From a virus (Duplodnaviria; Heunggongvirae; Uroviricota; Caudoviricetes): a DNA stretch of 9,070 nt. The notes beneath the pieces were generated by a model. That model saw only the letters and a list, made by a program, of their open reading frames with translations. It was not told where the DNA came from and searched no databases. How positions within the stretch are numbered: position 1 is the stretch's first letter; the number at the start of each line of letters is the position of its first letter. Position numbers and translations under genes: made by a program. Location of the stretch: IMG/VR virus record IMGVR_UViG_2606217111_000011. The stretch is one strand, 5' to 3'. Below, piece by piece: positions 16 through 7,924 of this stretch.

Positions 16-887
16 TCACCAACCGGCTGGGACATATCTCACACCTCCCGGAATCCCCGCTGAAGCCATCATTAATGCGGCATCATCCACCATGACATCC
101 GCCACATCCGCAGACGATAAAATATCGCCCCCTCCGTCCCCACCGAACCGGACGCCTCCGGCAAGTCCTGCCGCTTTCTGCATCAGCATTTTGTCCTCAT
201 CCGGCCTCTCCACCTGCTCTTCCTCATGCCGGGGGACAAGCAGACTGAAATCAGAGGGATGCATATCCGGATCGCAAAAAAACAGGCTGAGTACAGCGTA
301 CGTCAGCCCGGAAAAATGCATATCCAGCTGGGTATCCTGAAAATAATGCGTGCGGTAAAAACGGTGCCAGTCGGCATATTCGGTGGATGTCATCCCGGCA
401 AGCATGGTGCGCCAGTCGGGTCTCCCCATCTCACGCGCCAGTCTGAGGGCAAAGTTCAGCTCACCGTCGAAGACTTTCCCGCAGAAAAATCATCATCAGT
501 CAGCGTGTTATTTTTCGCCACTTCAGTAATATCAGTATCCGGACGAACAGCTTCGATCATCCCGGACAGACGCAACACCACGTCTTCCGCCCGGGCAATG
601 GCATCAGCAGGCCAGGTGGTGAGCACTTCCTGCTCTATCTTCATCACGGCCTCATTCATTGACGGTGACTGCGTTTTCTGTGGATGGTTATGCCACAGGG
701 ACATCGCCACCAGAAACGCGCCGGTTCTGACAAGATCTTCCACACTCACCTGCAGGTTGCCGCTGGCTTCAGCCTCTTCTGCCCGCCGTTTCAGGAGGGC
801 AAGATGCTCAATACGCTGCAGCGCAGACAGCTCAGAAAGCGTGACAGACACACCGTTATATTCAAATTGTTCTGTTTTCAGGAACAT
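16..887 (-). CDS. T: Tail assembly chaperone G-T fusion, made by -1 frameshift at 474-480 (T segment 16-477)
   Basis: The T frame has no ribosome-binding site or start of its own upstream of the frameshift site and is contiguous with G in the -1 frame. The T-segment translation (DWRTMLAGMTSTEYADWHRFY, LDMHFSGLTY, DPDMHP, LMQKAAGLAGGVRFG) matches recalled lambda gpT. Confidence 0.82.
456..887 (-). CDS. G: Tail assembly chaperone G
   Basis: 143 aa. Recalled lambda gpG blocks: MFLKTE-FE-NGV-VTLSELSALQRIEHLA, GAFLVAMSLWHNHPQKTQ-PSMNEAV, EQEVLTTWP. It ends just after the slippery heptamer. Confidence 0.9.
   Translation of the reverse strand: MFLKTEQFEYNGVSVTLSELSALQRIEHLALLKRRAEEAEASGNLQVSVEDLVRTGAFLVAMSLWHNHPQKTQSPSMNEAVMKIEQEVLTTWPADAIARAEDVVLRLSGMIEAVRPDTDITEVAKNNTLTDDDFSAGKSSTVS
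474..480 (-). promoter_or_regulatory. -1 programmed ribosomal frameshift slippery heptamer G GGA AAG (G to G-T)
   Basis: The minus-strand sequence GCG GGA AAG TCT lies 5 codons before the G stop. The -1 frame is open from this site (VFDGELNFALRLAREMGRPDWRTM...) down to the TGA at 16-18. This is the canonical lambda G/GT arrangement. Confidence 0.85.
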
Positions 888-1662: not shown

Positions 1663-2058
1663 TCACATCTCGTATGTAATGGAATAAGTCAGATCTGCAG
1701 AGCTCCATAACGCCATATCGTCATCACGACGATACTCATAGCCCTGCGTAACCATCGTGGTAATCAGTCCAGCCAGTGCCGGGATCGCAGTCATCGCCGG
1801 ATAAATCCGGCTTTCCATCCACTGATCAAGCTCTGAATCCGGTACCTGTGCCGGTAAAAACACCTCAATATGCAGCGTGGCCCGCCAGGTATCTGCATCC
1901 AGCTCTTCACCGGTATACTCTGCATCCGTCAGATAAACCGCGATCGCAGGAAAATCCTCTTCGTCAAAAACAACGGGGCGACCATCAAACAGCGTCGCCC
2001 CGTGTTCATGCTGCTCGAGTGCATCCAGCACTGCAGCACGGATATCAGTGTGTTTCAT
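1663..2058 (-). CDS. U: Tail terminator protein U
   Basis: 131 aa, the same length as lambda gpU, with near-collinear recalled similarity ([71 protein letters not shown]). Confidence 0.92.
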
Positions 2059-2588
2059 CGTTTTATCGCAATCCTCAGTTGTTGTTTCAGCGCGGATGCC
2101 AGTTCTCCGGGCAGGCGTTCACGCCGGATACGGTCAACATTCTCATCAAACGCCTGTTTCAGTGGGGCCGCCATCGGGATTTTCACCACATCAATAGGGT
2201 AACGGTTTTTCCCGGCCACACGCTGCATAACATGCCAGCGCCCATTATTTAATCGCTGGATAAATGCCCGCTGATACCGATGCTGACCGGCTTTAAGTAT
2301 GCTGTTCGGACGACGGCCCAGCATCCTGATCCCCAGCTTAATCACTGGAAGATCACCGCGGTTAACGATAATTCTGGCATTCGGATTTCTGACCGTGGCC
2401 CGTTTCAGTCTGGACCGTTCCTTAACCAGTTTCCGGCGTACCTTTGTCTCCCGGGCAACCTGTGATGAAGACTGATTAATCGCCGTTGTGGCCACGCGGT
2501 TAATCGTCATTGCTGAAGCCGCCGGAATGGCGTTTTTACGAACCCGGCTCAGATTATCAATCGCCTGATCAAGCCCTTTTATCGCCAT
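2055..2588 (-). CDS. Z: Tail assembly/completion protein Z
   Basis: 177 aa. N- and C-terminal blocks recalled from lambda gpZ: MAIKGL, QVARETKVRRKLVKER-RLKRATV, NRGDLPVIKLG, NGRWHVMQRVAGKNRYPIDVVKIPMA, RIRRERLP. GGGGGA ribosome-binding site before the ATG at 2586-2588. Its TGA overlaps the U start in an ATGA arrangement. Confidence 0.9.
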   Translation of the reverse strand: MAIKGLDQAIDNLSRVRKNAIPAASAMTINRVATTAINQSSSQVARETKVRRKLVKERSRLKRATVRNPNARIIVNRGDLPVIKLGIRMLGRRPNSILKAGQHRYQRAFIQRLNNGRWHVMQRVAGKNRYPIDVVKIPMAAPLKQAFDENVDRIRRERLPGELASALKQQLRIAIKR

Positions 2589-2957: not shown

Positions 2958-3160
2958 AAACAGCCATTCCACCATCAACGTGTGTTTTTGCATCTGAGGA
3001 CATAATCAGAATCACCCGACCAACATCCGCAAGCTCAACGGATTCCCCCGTTTCACCATCAACGCCACAGAGATGGAGGCAGGTCAGAACTCTGATGCGT
3101 TAACGCGCCGGATGTTTCCTCACCATTGAGCCGCGGTTTCCCGCTCCCGGATATCCATAT

Positions 3161-3316
3161 TCATAACCTGTACATCATCGCCGAGGCGCAAACCTCCTCT
3201 TCCCATTCTGCCACCCGCTGCGCTATCTCTGCGGCACTCCCGGATATATCCGGCTCACGCCCCAGAATCAGGGCCAGTTCATCAAGCCGTTTCAGATTTT
3301 GCTCTTTCGTTGCCAT
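3161..3316 (-). CDS. FI: FI-like DNA-packaging protein, N-terminal domain only (51 codons); possibly a truncated gene or pseudogene
   Basis: Not in the ORF track because it is under 60 aa. ATG at 3314-3316 is preceded by AGGGGG with a 5-nt spacer. My translation is MATKEQNLKRLDELALILGREPDISGSAAEIAQRVAEWEEEVCASAMMYRL, ending at the TGA at 3161-3163. It resembles the lambda gpFI N-terminus as I recall it (MTKDELIARLRSLGEQLN...EELALRVAELKEE). It lies at the FI position between E and FII. Confidence 0.5.
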   Translation of the reverse strand: MATKEQNLKRLDELALILGREPDISGSAAEIAQRVAEWEEEVCASAMMYRL

Positions 3317-3330
3317 ATCAGCCCCCTGTG

Positions 3331-3358
3331 AAAAAAACACGGGGGCATTTCGCCCCCG
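3331..3358 (-). terminator. Candidate rho-independent terminator immediately downstream of E
   Basis: On the minus-strand RNA: CGGGGGC GAAAU GCCCCCG, a 7-bp all-G/C stem (3340-3346 paired with 3352-3358) with a 5-nt loop, followed by UG and seven U (plus-strand A-run 3331-3337). It begins 8 nt after the E stop. Confidence 0.55.
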
Positions 3359-3366
3359 CTCACGGA

Positions 3367-4395
3367 TTATTTCACCTGTACCACCACAAACTCATCCGGA
3401 TCCGGCAGCACCATCAGCGGCGCGGACTGCGTCATGGTGAATTCACAGGACGGATCGCCCACGGTCAGCCAGTGTTTCGGGTAACGGGAAGAAGCCACCA
3501 CTCCTTCAGATAACGCCTGTGCATCCTTAATGGCTCCATAGCAACGAATCCCCTCTGCTGCCGTATTCCCCAGCACCAGCGTGCCCTCCGGCAGATAACG
3601 TTTTTCGGTACCGTCCTCTGCCACATAAGACGTTTTCGCTACCACAATGGCCAGATCGCCGTAATACCCCTTGAAGGATACCACTGCGCCCAGATCTTTC
3701 ACTGCCGTTTCGAGTTGTGAATTTGAACCGCGACGGGTATCCAGTTTTTCGCGGAAAAGCTTAAAGCCATTCAGCAGACGCCAGACGGTACCGTCCATAA
3801 TGGCAATATTCACAAGACCACTGGCCTGATCACAGAAAAGGTCGATATCATATGTCGGGTCGAACGTGTCACGATCCTGTTTTGACCACTCCTTACCGCT
3901 ACCTTGTATGATGTTATTCTTCGTCGATCGGCCAAAATCGACTTCAATTTTCTCGAACTGGTCTCCTTCCATCGTATATTTGCCATACAGCACGGCATTC
4001 ACCGCCTGCATTTCTTCCACCTGGACAATAGCGTGCTCTTCCTGTTTGAGGTTATCGGTAATGATACGCAGACGACGGTAGGCCGGGTCGTTCAGCTGAG
4101 CCGGATCTTCACCAGGAAGGCGCTCAACCGCCTGCTGGTAATTAAATTCGTGTTTGGGCTTGACGTAGCCCGGACGTAACACGCGGGTTTCACCACCGCG
4201 ATGGCGAAGCACTTTTCCTTCAACGATCGGGGAGACATAGGCCGCCACCGGCGTTTTTCCGGTAATTTTGTCCAGCATCACCTCTTCGGTGTGGAAATTC
4301 ACCGTACGGCGGAAAAACAGCTCCAGAAACAGCGCACGGAATTTCACTTTTTGTTCGGTATAACCGAGTAACTGGCGGGTCGTAAACAATCCCAT
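3367..4395 (-). CDS. E: Major capsid protein (lambda gpE family)
   Basis: 342 aa; lambda gpE is 341 aa. Recalled conserved blocks: YVSPIV, PGYVKPKHE, DPAYRRLRII, VEEMQAV, GKYTM, LDTRRGSNS, LETAVKDLG, FTM-QSAPLM. ATG at 4393-4395 with AGGA upstream. Confidence 0.95.
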   Translation of the reverse strand: MGLFTTRQLLGYTEQKVKFRALFLELFFRRTVNFHTEEVMLDKITGKTPVAAYVSPIVEGKVLRHRGGETRVLRPGYVKPKHEFNYQQAVERLPGEDPAQLNDPAYRRLRIITDNLKQEEHAIVQVEEMQAVNAVLYGKYTMEGDQFEKIEVDFGRSTKNNIIQGSGKEWSKQDRDTFDPTYDIDLFCDQASGLVNIAIMDGTVWRLLNGFKLFREKLDTRRGSNSQLETAVKDLGAVVSFKGYYGDLAIVVAKTSYVAEDGTEKRYLPEGTLVLGNTAAEGIRCYGAIKDAQALSEGVVASSRYPKHWLTVGDPSCEFTMTQSAPLMVLPDPDEFVVVQVK

Positions 4396-4423
4396 AAATC
4401 AGTTCCTTTCATTAAGAAATCAG

Positions 4424-4445
4424 TCAGGCCAACGCGGTGGCCTGA
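4424..4445 (+). other. Dyad symmetry in the D-E intergenic region
   Basis: tcaggcc (4424-4430) pairs with ggcctga (4439-4445), giving a 7-bp stem and an 8-nt loop. It sits between the D stop (4453-4455) and the E ribosome-binding site and start (4393-4395). Confidence 0.5.
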
Positions 4446-4452
4446 TAACGTG

Positions 4453-6342: not shown

Positions 6343-7924
6343 GTGGTGTTGTCTCCTCTTCCGGCCTGCGACTCTCCGCTATCTGCTGCTGATACGCCTG
6401 CGCTATCCACACCGGACGTGAGAGTCCGGCTTTTTCCCGCTCTGCAGATTCCCTGACCTGCTGGCGGAAAATGTCCTGATAATCCTCGCCCATCAGCGCC
6501 AGCTCTTTCTCATACGTGCTCAGTCCGGCCTCAATGCGCATCACTGATTCCTGAACCTCCTTGAGCCCGTCAATGGCCATTCTTCCGGCACCAATCCACT
6601 CTGCCCGTGACCAGGCTGATCGCGCCTGATAAAAATCAAAACGTGCCCGTGGCGGACGAATAATCCCCCGAAGAAGTGCCTCTTCCAGCCAGCAGGAAAA
6701 CATCTGCGTGGCCAGCCGGGACGCAATAAATTTTCGCCGCCCCATAAAATAGCGCCACGACTCATTGGCGGATGCGCGGGCACTTGAGTAACTGACCTTC
6801 GAGTAATCACGGGACAACTGTTCGTAGGAAACGCCAAGACCGGCGGCGATATACCGCAGCAGCGCCTGTTCAAGCGCAGAAAATCCATTGTCTGAATCCT
6901 GCGCAGTCTGTAGTTTCAGATCATCACCGGGGAAAAGGTGCGGAATTTTGACACCGCCCAGTGTCACGTTATTCGTGTCATACCAGCTGGAAAACTTCTC
7001 CAGAATATTAATAAGCGGATTATCCTTCTGCTCCTGTGGCGCGCCGGCGATATATTCAAAGGCCTTTTCGGTATCAAGTTCACTTTCAATCGTCGCTGCA
7101 TACATCGCCTTCACTATGGCCGACTGAAGCTGTGTTGCCTGCAGGGAATCGAGCATCTTCAGCCGTTCCATGACGCTGTAAAACTGATTAGCCCCACGGG
7201 TCTGCCCGTCCTCCACCGGCTCGAAAATATGCAGCATGGCCGGACGCCCGGTGGGAAGTTCACGCGGGATCCGTTCCCATCGTCCACTACCAGAGAACGG
7301 AAAATCATCCTCACAGATATGGTACGCGACGGCACGGCCATATCGATCGACCTCCACACCGGCCCGCAGAAAACGGTTCCCCATACCGTGTCCAGGCGTG
7401 TCCACCCGTTTCGGACTCACGGCTTTAAAACGCGTACGGAATAACTGCGTGGTTTCCGTATCCCAGACCGGCTGCACAAAGATTTCGCCGTTAAACGCAT
7501 GAACGCCCACACCTTCACGGATAAATTCCGTGAACGTGCGTTTTCCTTCCACGTCGATCTCGCCAAACATCCCTTCGGCGTATTCCGACCAGGCCGCCTC
7601 CACCTCATCGACAAAGCTTTTTGCTGCGGTCTCCCGCATCCCCAGCCAGCGCCAGTTCGGACGGTAGCTGATCAGAAACATATGCCCGACAATGTGATCC
7701 TTATGCAGAGCCACCGCATTAGCCGCTATTCCGTTATTGCGCACCAGATCATCTGCCCGGGCATTCCCCAGACGCAACGCGGGCAGCAGGGCCGCATCGG
7801 CACTCTGCGCCGGTGGCAACCACTCAGCCATTTGCCCGCCAAATCCTGCACCGCCCCCGTTGTAGCTGAGACTCTCACGAAGCGGAACGCCGTTCACATC
7901 AATCAGGACAGGCGTTCGTTTCAT
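6332..7924 (-). CDS. B: Portal protein
   Basis: Long minus-strand ORF. I place the start at the ATG at 7922-7924 (MKRTPVLIDVNG...), which has a GGGAG ribosome-binding site about 7 nt upstream and overlaps the W stop, rather than the upstream GTG at 7954 used by the track. Conserved blocks recalled from lambda gpB: ARADDLVRNNG, HAFNGE, FEPVEDGQTRGANQFYSVME, AMYAATIESELDT, RYIAAGLGVSYEQLSR, GRMAIDGLKEVQE. Confidence 0.93.
   Translation of the reverse strand: MKRTPVLIDVNGVPLRESLSYNGGGAGFGGQMAEWLPPAQSADAALLPALRLGNARADDLVRNNGIAANAVALHKDHIVGHMFLISYRPNWRWLGMRETAAKSFVDEVEAAWSEYAEGMFGEIDVEGKRTFTEFIREGVGVHAFNGEIFVQPVWDTETTQLFRTRFKAVSPKRVDTPGHGMGNRFLRAGVEVDRYGRAVAYHICEDDFPFSGSGRWERIPRELPTGRPAMLHIFEPVEDGQTRGANQFYSVMERLKMLDSLQATQLQSAIVKAMYAATIESELDTEKAFEYIAGAPQEQKDNPLINILEKFSSWYDTNNVTLGGVKIPHLFPGDDLKLQTAQDSDNGFSALEQALLRYIAAGLGVSYEQLSRDYSKVSYSSARASANESWRYFMGRRKFIASRLATQMFSCWLEEALLRGIIRPPRARFDFYQARSAWSRAEWIGAGRMAIDGLKEVQESVMRIEAGLSTYEKELALMGEDYQDIFRQQVRESAEREKAGLSRPVWIAQAYQQQIAESRRPEEETTPRET

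What the first reader, a model, noticed from the sequence alone, without database searches (positions are those of the whole stretch)
3321..3358. Terminator-like hairpin after the major capsid gene, overlapping an alternative hairpin that covers the FI ribosome-binding site
Eight nt after the E stop, the minus-strand RNA can form a 7-bp all-G/C stem (3340-3346 with 3352-3358) followed by UG and seven U, which is an intrinsic-terminator architecture in the middle of what is normally one late operon. The stem segment 3341-3346 can alternatively pair with 3321-3326, which contains the GGGGG ribosome-binding site of the FI-like ORF. The two structures are mutually exclusive. This could tune the ratio of capsid to downstream transcript, or couple FI translation to RNA folding.
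Basis: seen in the sequence. Interest (0 to 1): 0.45.

Follow-up and report, generated by a model that had tools for sequence, protein, structure and literature searches.

The report
Terminator-like hairpin after lambdoid capsid gene
A stable G+C-rich RNA hairpin followed by seven U sits just after the major capsid gene of a phage-21-like prophage; relatives keep the structure at this spot with quite different sequences, it is already annotated as a putative terminator in phage N15, and the proposed competing fold over the next gene's ribosome-binding site is possible on paper but not supported as a regulator.

Summary
On the minus (sense) strand, 8 nt after the capsid (E-like) stop codon, GCGGGGGC-GAAAU-GCCCCCGU (3359-3339) folds at -17.3 kcal/mol and is followed by G plus U7. 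It is the most stable 24-nt local fold on the sense strand of the 9-kb window and the top terminator-like site.

About 15 sequence types of E-family capsid genes carry a different-sequence G+C hairpin in the same place. These include lambda, N15/phi80, Providencia, Serratia, E. whittamii, Aeromonas and chi-like phages. Several stem changes preserve pairing (G-C to A-U; A-U to G.U to G-C). Enteric lambdoids mostly keep a U-rich tail. N15's GenBank record already calls it a putative rho-independent terminator.

I read it as an intrinsic-terminator-type hairpin inside the Q-antiterminated late operon. It most likely gives capsid mRNA a protected 3' end and stops RNA polymerase that lacks Q.

The alternative hairpin over the FI ribosome-binding site exists geometrically (-16.3 kcal/mol). 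Its equilibrium occupancy is 2% or less, and it is absent outside the phage-21 clade. Its partner is transcribed after the termination decision, so it cannot modulate termination. FI is frameshifted in this window. This is an ordinary member of a known kind.

The parts
3367..4395 (-). E-like major capsid protein gene (342 aa), stop TAA at 3369-3367
   Evidence: ORF list. Global alignment gives 328 of 342 residues identical to the phage 21 capsid protein; tblastn gives about 61% identity to lambda E.
3360..3366 (-). UCCGUGA spacer between the stop codon and the hairpin. In the MFE it pairs with UCAC-A-GGG (3331-3324), extending the hairpin and partly covering the FI SD.
   Evidence: the extended structure is -21.9 kcal/mol, with pair probabilities 0.3-0.7. 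In the 21 clade 96% of cells pair, but there is no two-sided covariation.
3339..3359 (-). Terminator-type hairpin: 5' arm GCGGGGGC (3359-3352), loop GAAAU (3351-3347), 3' arm GCCCCCGU (3346-3339)
   Evidence: 100% of cells pair across 15 distinct 21-clade variants, with one G-C to A-U double change.
3331..3338 (-). G followed by a U7 tract (terminator tail). It would be the loop of the alternative hairpin.
   Evidence: Most relatives have UCUUUUUU here.
3321..3330 (-). CACAGGGGGC: the FI Shine-Dalgarno region (GGGGG 3326-3322).
   Evidence: The SD varies among close relatives (GGGGGC, GGGGGA, GGGAGC, GGAGGC).
2994..3316 (-). FI-like DNA-packaging gene, disrupted. ATG at 3316-3314; the reading frame stops at 3161 after 51 codons, and the remaining FI homology is spread over the two other frames.
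   Evidence: Alignment to phage 21 shows indels of -1, -5 and -2 nt. Three-frame translation.
4423..4446 (-). Second intercistronic hairpin UCAGGCCA-CCGCGU-UGGCCUGA, between the D-like decoration gene and the capsid gene. The capsid gene is therefore flanked by hairpins.
   Evidence: An equivalent stem-loop is annotated in N15, and lambda has a canonical hairpin plus U run there.

Best explanation
The element is an intrinsic-terminator-type RNA hairpin placed at the 3' end of the major capsid cistron. It is a positional feature shared by E-family (lambda-like) head modules.

Shown here:
- The hairpin is exceptionally stable.
- It sits 0-21 nt after the capsid stop codon in nearly all relatives examined, with unrelated sequences.
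- Its stem tolerates only pair-preserving changes.
- In enteric lambdoid phages it is usually followed by a U-rich run.

Inferred mechanism:
- During lytic growth the late operon is transcribed by Q-loaded RNA polymerase. Its narrowed RNA-exit channel prevents terminator hairpins from acting, so most polymerases read through to the essential head-completion and tail genes downstream. No promoter-like site exists in the window to restart transcription.
- The hairpin then forms behind the polymerase. It gives capsid RNA a protected 3' end, either from the minority of termination events or by blocking 3'-to-5' exonucleases after cleavage. This favours capsid mRNA over the downstream, low-copy genes.
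- For polymerases without Q (prophage state, spurious initiation) it acts as an ordinary terminator.
- The overlap with the FI ribosome-binding site is a by-product of a C-rich arm lying next to a G-rich SD. At most it gives weak local occlusion of the SD.
For: Anatomy and statistics.

Structure conserved without sequence conservation:
- lambda AUGGCCC-UUCG-GGGCCAU
- N15 and phi80 GUGGCCC/GGGCCAC
- PhAER-5, chi, pPM_01, Vibrio K251, Salvo and AH2
- Providencia GGCGGG-GAAA-CCCGCC, Serratia GGGGC-UACG-GCCCC, E. whittamii GAGCC-GAAA-GGCUC plus U7
- L190 and L192 GGGGCC/GGCCC

Pair-preserving changes:
- G-C to A-U in L098/L099
- G-C to G.U in L070 and L059, and C-G to U.G in L189
- Both arms shortened together in L018
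- A-U, G.U and G-C at the basal pair across lambda, L134 and N15

Other support:
- U-rich tails in the enteric types.
- The only long intergenic gaps in the tightly packed operon flank the capsid gene, and both contain hairpins.
- No sigma-70-like promoter anywhere in the window, so downstream genes need read-through.
- The N15 record annotates the homologous stem-loop as a putative rho-independent terminator.
- Q proteins block terminator hairpins via an RNA-exit nozzle (PMC9388147; bioRxiv 10.1101/651190).
- Intra-late-operon terminators after the procapsid module are noted for P22 and L, with the same two candidate roles (PMC8022706).
Against: - No transcript data were available. Termination efficiency, read-through and RNA half-lives are all inferred.
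- If a 3' exonuclease barrier were the only role, the U tract would not need to be kept. If attenuation were the role, the canonical hairpin plus U run between D and E in lambda would reduce E relative to D, although both are needed in equal numbers.
- Chi-like, Xylella and Burkholderia relatives keep the hairpin without a U tract. The terminator and stabiliser roles may therefore differ by lineage.
- One relative (Vibrio R19R) has overlapping genes and no hairpin.
- From memory, not checked here: Sampson et al. 1988 attributed lambda late-protein ratios mainly to translation initiation.
Confidence: 0.55

Rival explanations
1. Insulator only. The hairpin matters solely as a terminator for RNA polymerase that lacks Q. 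It keeps late genes silent in the lysogen and stops spurious or read-in transcripts. It has no effect on lytic expression ratios.
For: - U-rich tails are kept in most enteric lambdoid types.
- Q-loaded polymerase ignores terminators (PMC9388147).
- The same suggestion is made for phage L.
- The capsid gene is bracketed by two such sites.
Against: - This does not explain why such sites sit precisely at both ends of the most highly expressed gene rather than at module or prophage borders.
- Relatives without U tracts keep the hairpin.
Confidence: 0.2
2. The 3' arm alternates between the terminator hairpin and a hairpin with the FI SD (GCCCCCGUG-U7-CAC-A-GGGGGC). FI translation would then be coupled to RNA folding or to ribosomes finishing E.
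For: - The alternative hairpin is nearly as stable in isolation (-16.3 against -17.3 kcal/mol). It fully sequesters the SD if the 5' arm is blocked down to 3355.
- 92% of cells pair in the 21 clade. L098 shows a U-A replacement that matches its changed arm.
- The MFE extension helix links the stop-proximal UCCGUGA to the SD.
Against: - Equilibrium occupancy is 0.4-2%.
- The partner is made after the termination decision.
- A ribosome at the stop codon should reach only about 3358, and in that simulation the alternative fold does not form.
- Mismatches occur in the natural GGGAG, GGAGG and GGGGGA variants with no compensation.
- SD-to-3'-arm pairing is about zero in lambda, N15, PhAER-5, Serratia, E. 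whittamii and chi.
- Only one informative sequence supports covariation, and its alignment downstream of the hairpin is doubtful.
Confidence: 0.1
3. Efficient partial terminator (attenuator). A substantial, fixed fraction of late transcripts ends here even with Q, stepping down transcription of FI and everything beyond.
For: - Good terminator anatomy in this copy: 8-bp stem and U7.
- By analogy, T7 places its single terminator T-phi immediately after capsid gene 10 (PMC6938266).
Against: - Q-loaded complexes are termination-deficient (PMC9388147; 10.1101/651190).
- A cumulative loss at two sites around E would starve about 15 essential downstream genes.
- Most 21-clade relatives have an interrupted U tract, UCUUUUUU. 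Lambda and N15 have weak tails.
Confidence: 0.12
4. Chance inverted repeat with no function.
For: The loose terminator pattern finds 21 sites in the window against 7.3 in shuffles, so weak matches are common.
Against: - It is the strongest local fold in 9 kb, and 0 of 200 shuffles reach it.
- The position is conserved across about 15 unrelated sequence types, with pair-preserving changes.
Confidence: 0.03

Closest known systems
Phage N15 stem-loops flanking gene 8 (major capsid), annotated 'putative rho-indep. transcription terminator' in NC_001901 (7053-7073 and 5980-6004)
   Same: Homologous gene context (D-like, E-like and FI-like genes). There is a hairpin a few nt after the capsid stop and a second one before the capsid gene.
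   Different: Unrelated stem sequence (GUGGCCC/GGGCCAC) and a weaker U tail (CUUUCU). The 3' arm is not complementary to the FI SD.
Lambda E-FI intergenic hairpin AUGGCCC-UUCG-GGGCCAU (J02459 about 7166-7183)
   Same: Same position in the same operon, with a 7-bp G+C stem and a pyrimidine/U-rich tail before the FI SD.
   Different: It starts 2 nt after the stop codon, has a UUCG tetraloop and a tail UUGUUUCUCU, and has no alternative pairing with the SD. It is not annotated in the record I read.
Intra-late-operon terminator at the end of the procapsid module in P22-like phages (phage L paper, PMC8022706)
   Same: A predicted intrinsic terminator inside a single-promoter, antiterminated late operon just after the capsid-building genes. 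The authors propose partial termination or blocking of non-antiterminated transcripts.
   Different: Unrelated capsid gene family and sequence, and also untested.
T7 terminator T-phi immediately after capsid gene 10 (PMC6938266)
   Same: A terminator placed right after the most abundant structural gene, with essential genes downstream that depend on read-through.
   Different: It acts on T7 RNA polymerase and needs no antiterminator. Its efficiency has been measured experimentally (from memory), whereas nothing has been measured here.
Intercistronic 3' stabiliser hairpins in polycistronic mRNAs (pap papA, Rhodobacter puf, malE-malF REP), recalled from memory and not checked here
   Same: A stable hairpin after the high-copy cistron yields a longer-lived upstream RNA segment.
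   Different: Those cases have measured decay intermediates. Here the role is only an inference.

Membership tests
Intrinsic (Rho-independent) terminator | G+C-rich stem of about 5-14 bp with a short loop | tested here: met
   8 bp (7 G-C plus G.U), 5-nt loop, -17.3 kcal/mol.
Intrinsic (Rho-independent) terminator | U-rich tract directly after the stem | tested here: met
   G then U7 at 3338-3331, which is 7 U in the first 8 nt.
Intrinsic (Rho-independent) terminator | Lies on the sense strand downstream of a stop codon | tested here: met
   It begins 7-8 nt after the capsid TAA on the coding strand. On the opposite strand the tail is not U-rich.
Intrinsic (Rho-independent) terminator | RNA 3' ends or polymerase release at the U tract | not testable with these tools
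   No transcript data are available. This needs Term-seq or in vitro transcription.
Terminator/antiterminator attenuator (mutually exclusive folds deciding termination) | The competing partner is transcribed before the terminator is complete | tested here: not met
   The competing segment 3330-3321 lies 3' of the U tract.
Terminator/antiterminator attenuator (mutually exclusive folds deciding termination) | The alternative fold is conserved among relatives | tested here: not met
   SD-to-3'-arm pairing is about 0 in lambda, N15, PhAER-5, Serratia, E. whittamii and chi. It is eroded in 21-clade SD variants.
SD-sequestering structure giving translational coupling (MS2 coat-replicase type) | The SD is stably paired at equilibrium and is opened by the upstream ribosome | tested here: inconclusive
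   The SD bases are on average 0.55 unpaired. The extension helix (3366-3360 with 3331-3324) lies within reach of a terminating ribosome and opens when 3358 and above are blocked. It adds only about 4.6 kcal/mol and shows no covariation.
Intercistronic mRNA 3' stabiliser hairpin | A stable hairpin at the 3' end of the high-copy cistron, conserved in structure rather than sequence | tested here: met
   About 15 sequence types with the same placement.
Intercistronic mRNA 3' stabiliser hairpin | The upstream RNA segment outlives the downstream one, and 3' ends map at the hairpin | not testable with these tools
   Requires RNA decay and 3'-end mapping.
Rfam families | Match to any curated RNA model | tested here: not met
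   No relevant hit in the window at E <= 1.

The most novel reading that the evidence does not exclude
In phage-21-clade phages the C-rich 3' arm may be a toggle. While the capsid-gene hairpin is intact, the FI SD is accessible. Once the 5' arm is removed or occupied (RNA processing, or ribosomes stalled at the E stop), the arm captures the FI SD in a 9-bp hairpin whose loop is the U tract. FI would then be silenced on processed or stalled transcripts. This would be a post-transcriptional switch built from a terminator.
Probability: 0.08. Interest if true: 0.45.

Novelty: new member of a known kind. Interest (0 to 1): 0.2.

Why it matters
It is a clean example of structure, not sequence, being conserved at the 3' end of the capsid gene across lambda-like head modules. 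Hairpins flank the most highly expressed late gene on both sides. The role of such terminator-like sites inside antiterminated late operons is acknowledged as unknown (PMC8022706). Phage 21 or lambda would be a convenient system to settle whether they act through residual termination, RNA stabilisation or prophage silencing. For this window specifically it adds little. The element is inherited unchanged from phage-21-like relatives, and the downstream gene it was proposed to regulate is broken.

Tried and rejected
- Rfam scan of the whole window at E <= 1 gave only an irrelevant lncRNA hit.
- The genome-contig scan with the capsid protein returned only 7 loci. These were useful but too few for statistics.
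- Lambda ribosome-profiling and review papers (PMC3718152, PMC4424060) are not held. I found no transcript-level data for the E/FI junction. PMC5737525 and PMC2147009 contain nothing on this site.
- An automatic 'best hairpin' scan merged the core stem with its extension and gave misleading tail scores. I redid it with core stems.
- The d'Aubenton-Carafa-style d score uses a formula recalled from memory with modern energies. Only its ranking is meaningful, not its sign.
- I considered a bidirectional terminator and rejected it: the plus-strand tail UCACGGAUUAUU is not U-rich.
- I considered an RNase III site and rejected it: the stem is far shorter than the roughly 20 bp such sites need (general knowledge).
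- I considered an internal promoter for FI and rejected it: no promoter-like site was found.

Full report
**What the window is.** The window is the head-to-tail late region of a phage-21-like lambdoid prophage, read on the minus strand.
- A segment spanning the E/FI junction is 93.8% identical to Escherichia phage 21.
- The gene order matches the phage 21 annotation: large terminase, portal, protease/scaffold, decoration protein, E-like major capsid protein, FI, FII, Z, U, V, G.
- Similar copies occur in 1,563 of 5,426 complete E. coli genomes.

**Checking the observation.**
- The capsid ORF is 4395..3367, with TAA at 3369-3367.
- The stem C3358-C3352 pairs with G3340-G3346. G3359.U3339 adds an eighth pair, and the loop is GAAAU.
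- G3338 and U3337-3331 follow the stem.
- The FI Shine-Dalgarno GGGGG is at 3326-3322, and the FI ATG is at 3316-3314.

The consensus scan ranks this as the best terminator-like site in the window. The 38-nt core folds at -17.3 kcal/mol with z = -3.27, and 0 of 200 shuffles fold as well. Among all 24-nt windows on the sense strand it is the most stable: -17.5 against a mean of -3.5 and sd of 2.6. Rfam has no model for it.

**Comparative evidence for the hairpin within the phage 21 clade.** Phage 21 has the identical hairpin, with a C interrupting the U run. Eighty close relatives from IMG/VR keep it almost invariant. The few stem changes preserve pairing.
- G-C becomes G.U in L070/L074 and L059.
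- C-G becomes U.G in L189.
- Both arms are shortened by one base in L018.
- A two-sided G-C to A-U change occurs in L098/L099.

These are seen. On an alignment of 15 distinct variants, 100% of stem cells pair.

**Comparative evidence outside the clade.** More telling, divergent E-family capsid genes carry a hairpin of unrelated sequence at the same place.
- Lambda: AUGGCCC-UUCG-GGGCCAU.
- A lambda variant: GUGGCCC/GGGCCAU.
- N15 and phi80: GUGGCCC/GGGCCAC. Across these three, the basal pair runs A-U, G.U, G-C.
- Providencia: GGCGGG-GAAA-CCCGCC.
- Serratia: GGGGC-UACG-GCCCC.
- E. whittamii: GAGCC-GAAA-GGCUC followed by U7.
- Aeromonas PhAER-5: a 10-14-bp stem followed by UUUUGUUUU.
- Two IMG/VR types: GGGGCC/GGCCC.
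- Chi, pPM_01, Vibrio K251, Xylella Salvo and Burkholderia AH2.

Only Vibrio R19R, whose genes overlap, lacks a hairpin. Enteric lambdoid types mostly keep a U- or pyrimidine-rich tail. Chi-like, Xylella and Burkholderia phages keep the hairpin without one.

**The second hairpin.** The operon is otherwise tightly packed. Its only long spacers flank the capsid gene (57 and 50 nt), and both hold hairpins. The second is at 4446-4423. Lambda has a canonical hairpin plus U run at that position, and N15 has one too.

**What is already known.**
- The N15 GenBank record annotates both stem-loops around its capsid gene as putative rho-independent terminators.
- The phage L genome paper notes a predicted terminator at the end of the procapsid module inside the single-promoter late operon. 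[quoted passage not shown] It suggests partial termination, or stopping transcripts that lack antitermination (PMC8022706).
- T7 places its only terminator right after capsid gene 10 (PMC6938266).
- Q proteins of lambda and phage 21 form a nozzle on the RNA-exit channel that prevents terminator hairpins from acting (PMC9388147; bioRxiv 10.1101/651190).

**Mechanism I favour.** The window has no sigma-70-like promoter on either strand. Essential genes lie downstream, so late transcription must pass this site, which fits Q-mediated read-through. The conserved item is the hairpin itself, at the end of the highest-copy cistron. I therefore infer two roles. It provides a protected 3' end for capsid RNA, through residual termination or as a 3' exonuclease barrier after cleavage. 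It also terminates polymerases that lack Q. The retained U tracts in enteric phages argue that real termination matters at least for polymerases without Q. The canonical hairpin plus U run between D and E in lambda argues against efficient termination during lytic growth, because D and E are needed in equal numbers. All functional steps are inference; no transcript data could be found.

**The alternative hairpin.** GCCCCCGUG (3346-3338) can pair with CAC-A-GGGGGC (3330-3321), with the U7 run as the loop. That fold is -16.3 kcal/mol, against -17.3 for the terminator stem. Several points count against a regulatory role.
- The MFE instead extends the terminator hairpin, pairing UCCGUGA (3366-3360) with UCAC-A-GGG (3331-3324) for -21.9 kcal/mol. 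The alternative fold then has pair probabilities of 0.004 to 0.02.
- It appears only if the 5' arm is blocked down to about 3355. A ribosome with the E stop codon in its A site should cover mRNA only to about 3358 (established footprint geometry). With that block the alternative fold does not form, and the SD becomes more open.
- Its partner is transcribed after the U tract, so it cannot influence termination.
- Close relatives with SD variants GGGAGC, GGAGGC and GGGGGA introduce mismatches with no compensation.
- With the 5' arm blocked, SD-to-3'-arm pairing is about zero in lambda, N15, PhAER-5, Serratia, E. whittamii and chi.

The single apparent covariation (U-A in L098) rests on one sequence, and its alignment downstream of the hairpin is doubtful. 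A C-rich arm next to a G-rich SD is enough to explain the complementarity.

**State of FI in this window.** FI is disrupted. Relative to phage 21 there are indels of 1, 5 and 2 nt. The frame from ATG 3316 stops at 3161 after 51 codons, and the rest of the FI homology lies in the other two frames. Of the neighbouring genes, C, D, E, Z, U, V and G align full-length to their phage 21 counterparts with no internal stops, apart from a 15-residue shorter segment in Z. FII is an uninterrupted ORF, but its alignment used a mis-set frame and is uninformative. Any FI-specific regulation is therefore not currently under selection in this copy.

**Verdict.** The terminator reading is supported as architecture and as a conserved structural element. 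The switch idea is not supported. The element is a further member of a known, repeatedly noted but functionally untested class, so interest is low.

Noticed in passing
window 2994-3316 (-): The FI-like DNA-packaging gene is a pseudogene, or carries sequencing errors. Three indels (-1, -5, -2 nt) relative to phage 21 spread the FI homology over three reading frames. Of the neighbouring late genes, C, D, E, Z, U, V and G align full-length without internal stops, and FII is an open ORF.
   Followed up: yes
window 4423-4446 (-): A second stable hairpin (UCAGGCCA-CCGCGU-UGGCCUGA, about -13.6 kcal/mol) lies in the 57-nt spacer between the decoration gene and the capsid gene. The capsid gene is therefore bracketed by hairpins. 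N15 annotates the equivalent as a putative terminator, and lambda has a canonical hairpin plus U run there.
   Followed up: partly
window 3331-3337 (-) compared with loci L001, L019, L033 and others: There are two alleles of the tail. U7 is seen in this window and in the 14 IMG/VR loci whose capsid protein is 100% identical to it. UCUUUUUU is seen in phage 21 and most other relatives. This copy has the stronger terminator tail.
   Followed up: partly
window about 474-480 (-): The slippery heptamer GGGAAAG sits near the end of the G-like gene. This is the expected site of the conserved G/GT -1 frameshift for the tape-measure chaperones.
   Followed up: no
window 2055-2588 (-): The Z-like tail-completion protein is 177 aa, against 192 aa in phage 21. 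It has a divergent, 15-residue-shorter internal segment but no frame disruption.
   Followed up: partly
L083 (N15) 1626-1672; L084 (phi80) 1626-1672: In N15 and phi80, pyrimidine-rich bases between the capsid stop and the hairpin (UUCC/UCCA) can pair with the FI SD (GGAG/UGGA). This resembles the extension helix in this window. It is probably just generic SD complementarity.
   Followed up: partly
literature (PMC2147009): That paper cites an earlier array study (Chen et al.) reporting high gpE signal in lambda lysogens, which the authors did not reproduce. If real, the hairpin-flanked E segment might be separately transcribed or unusually stable.
   Followed up: no
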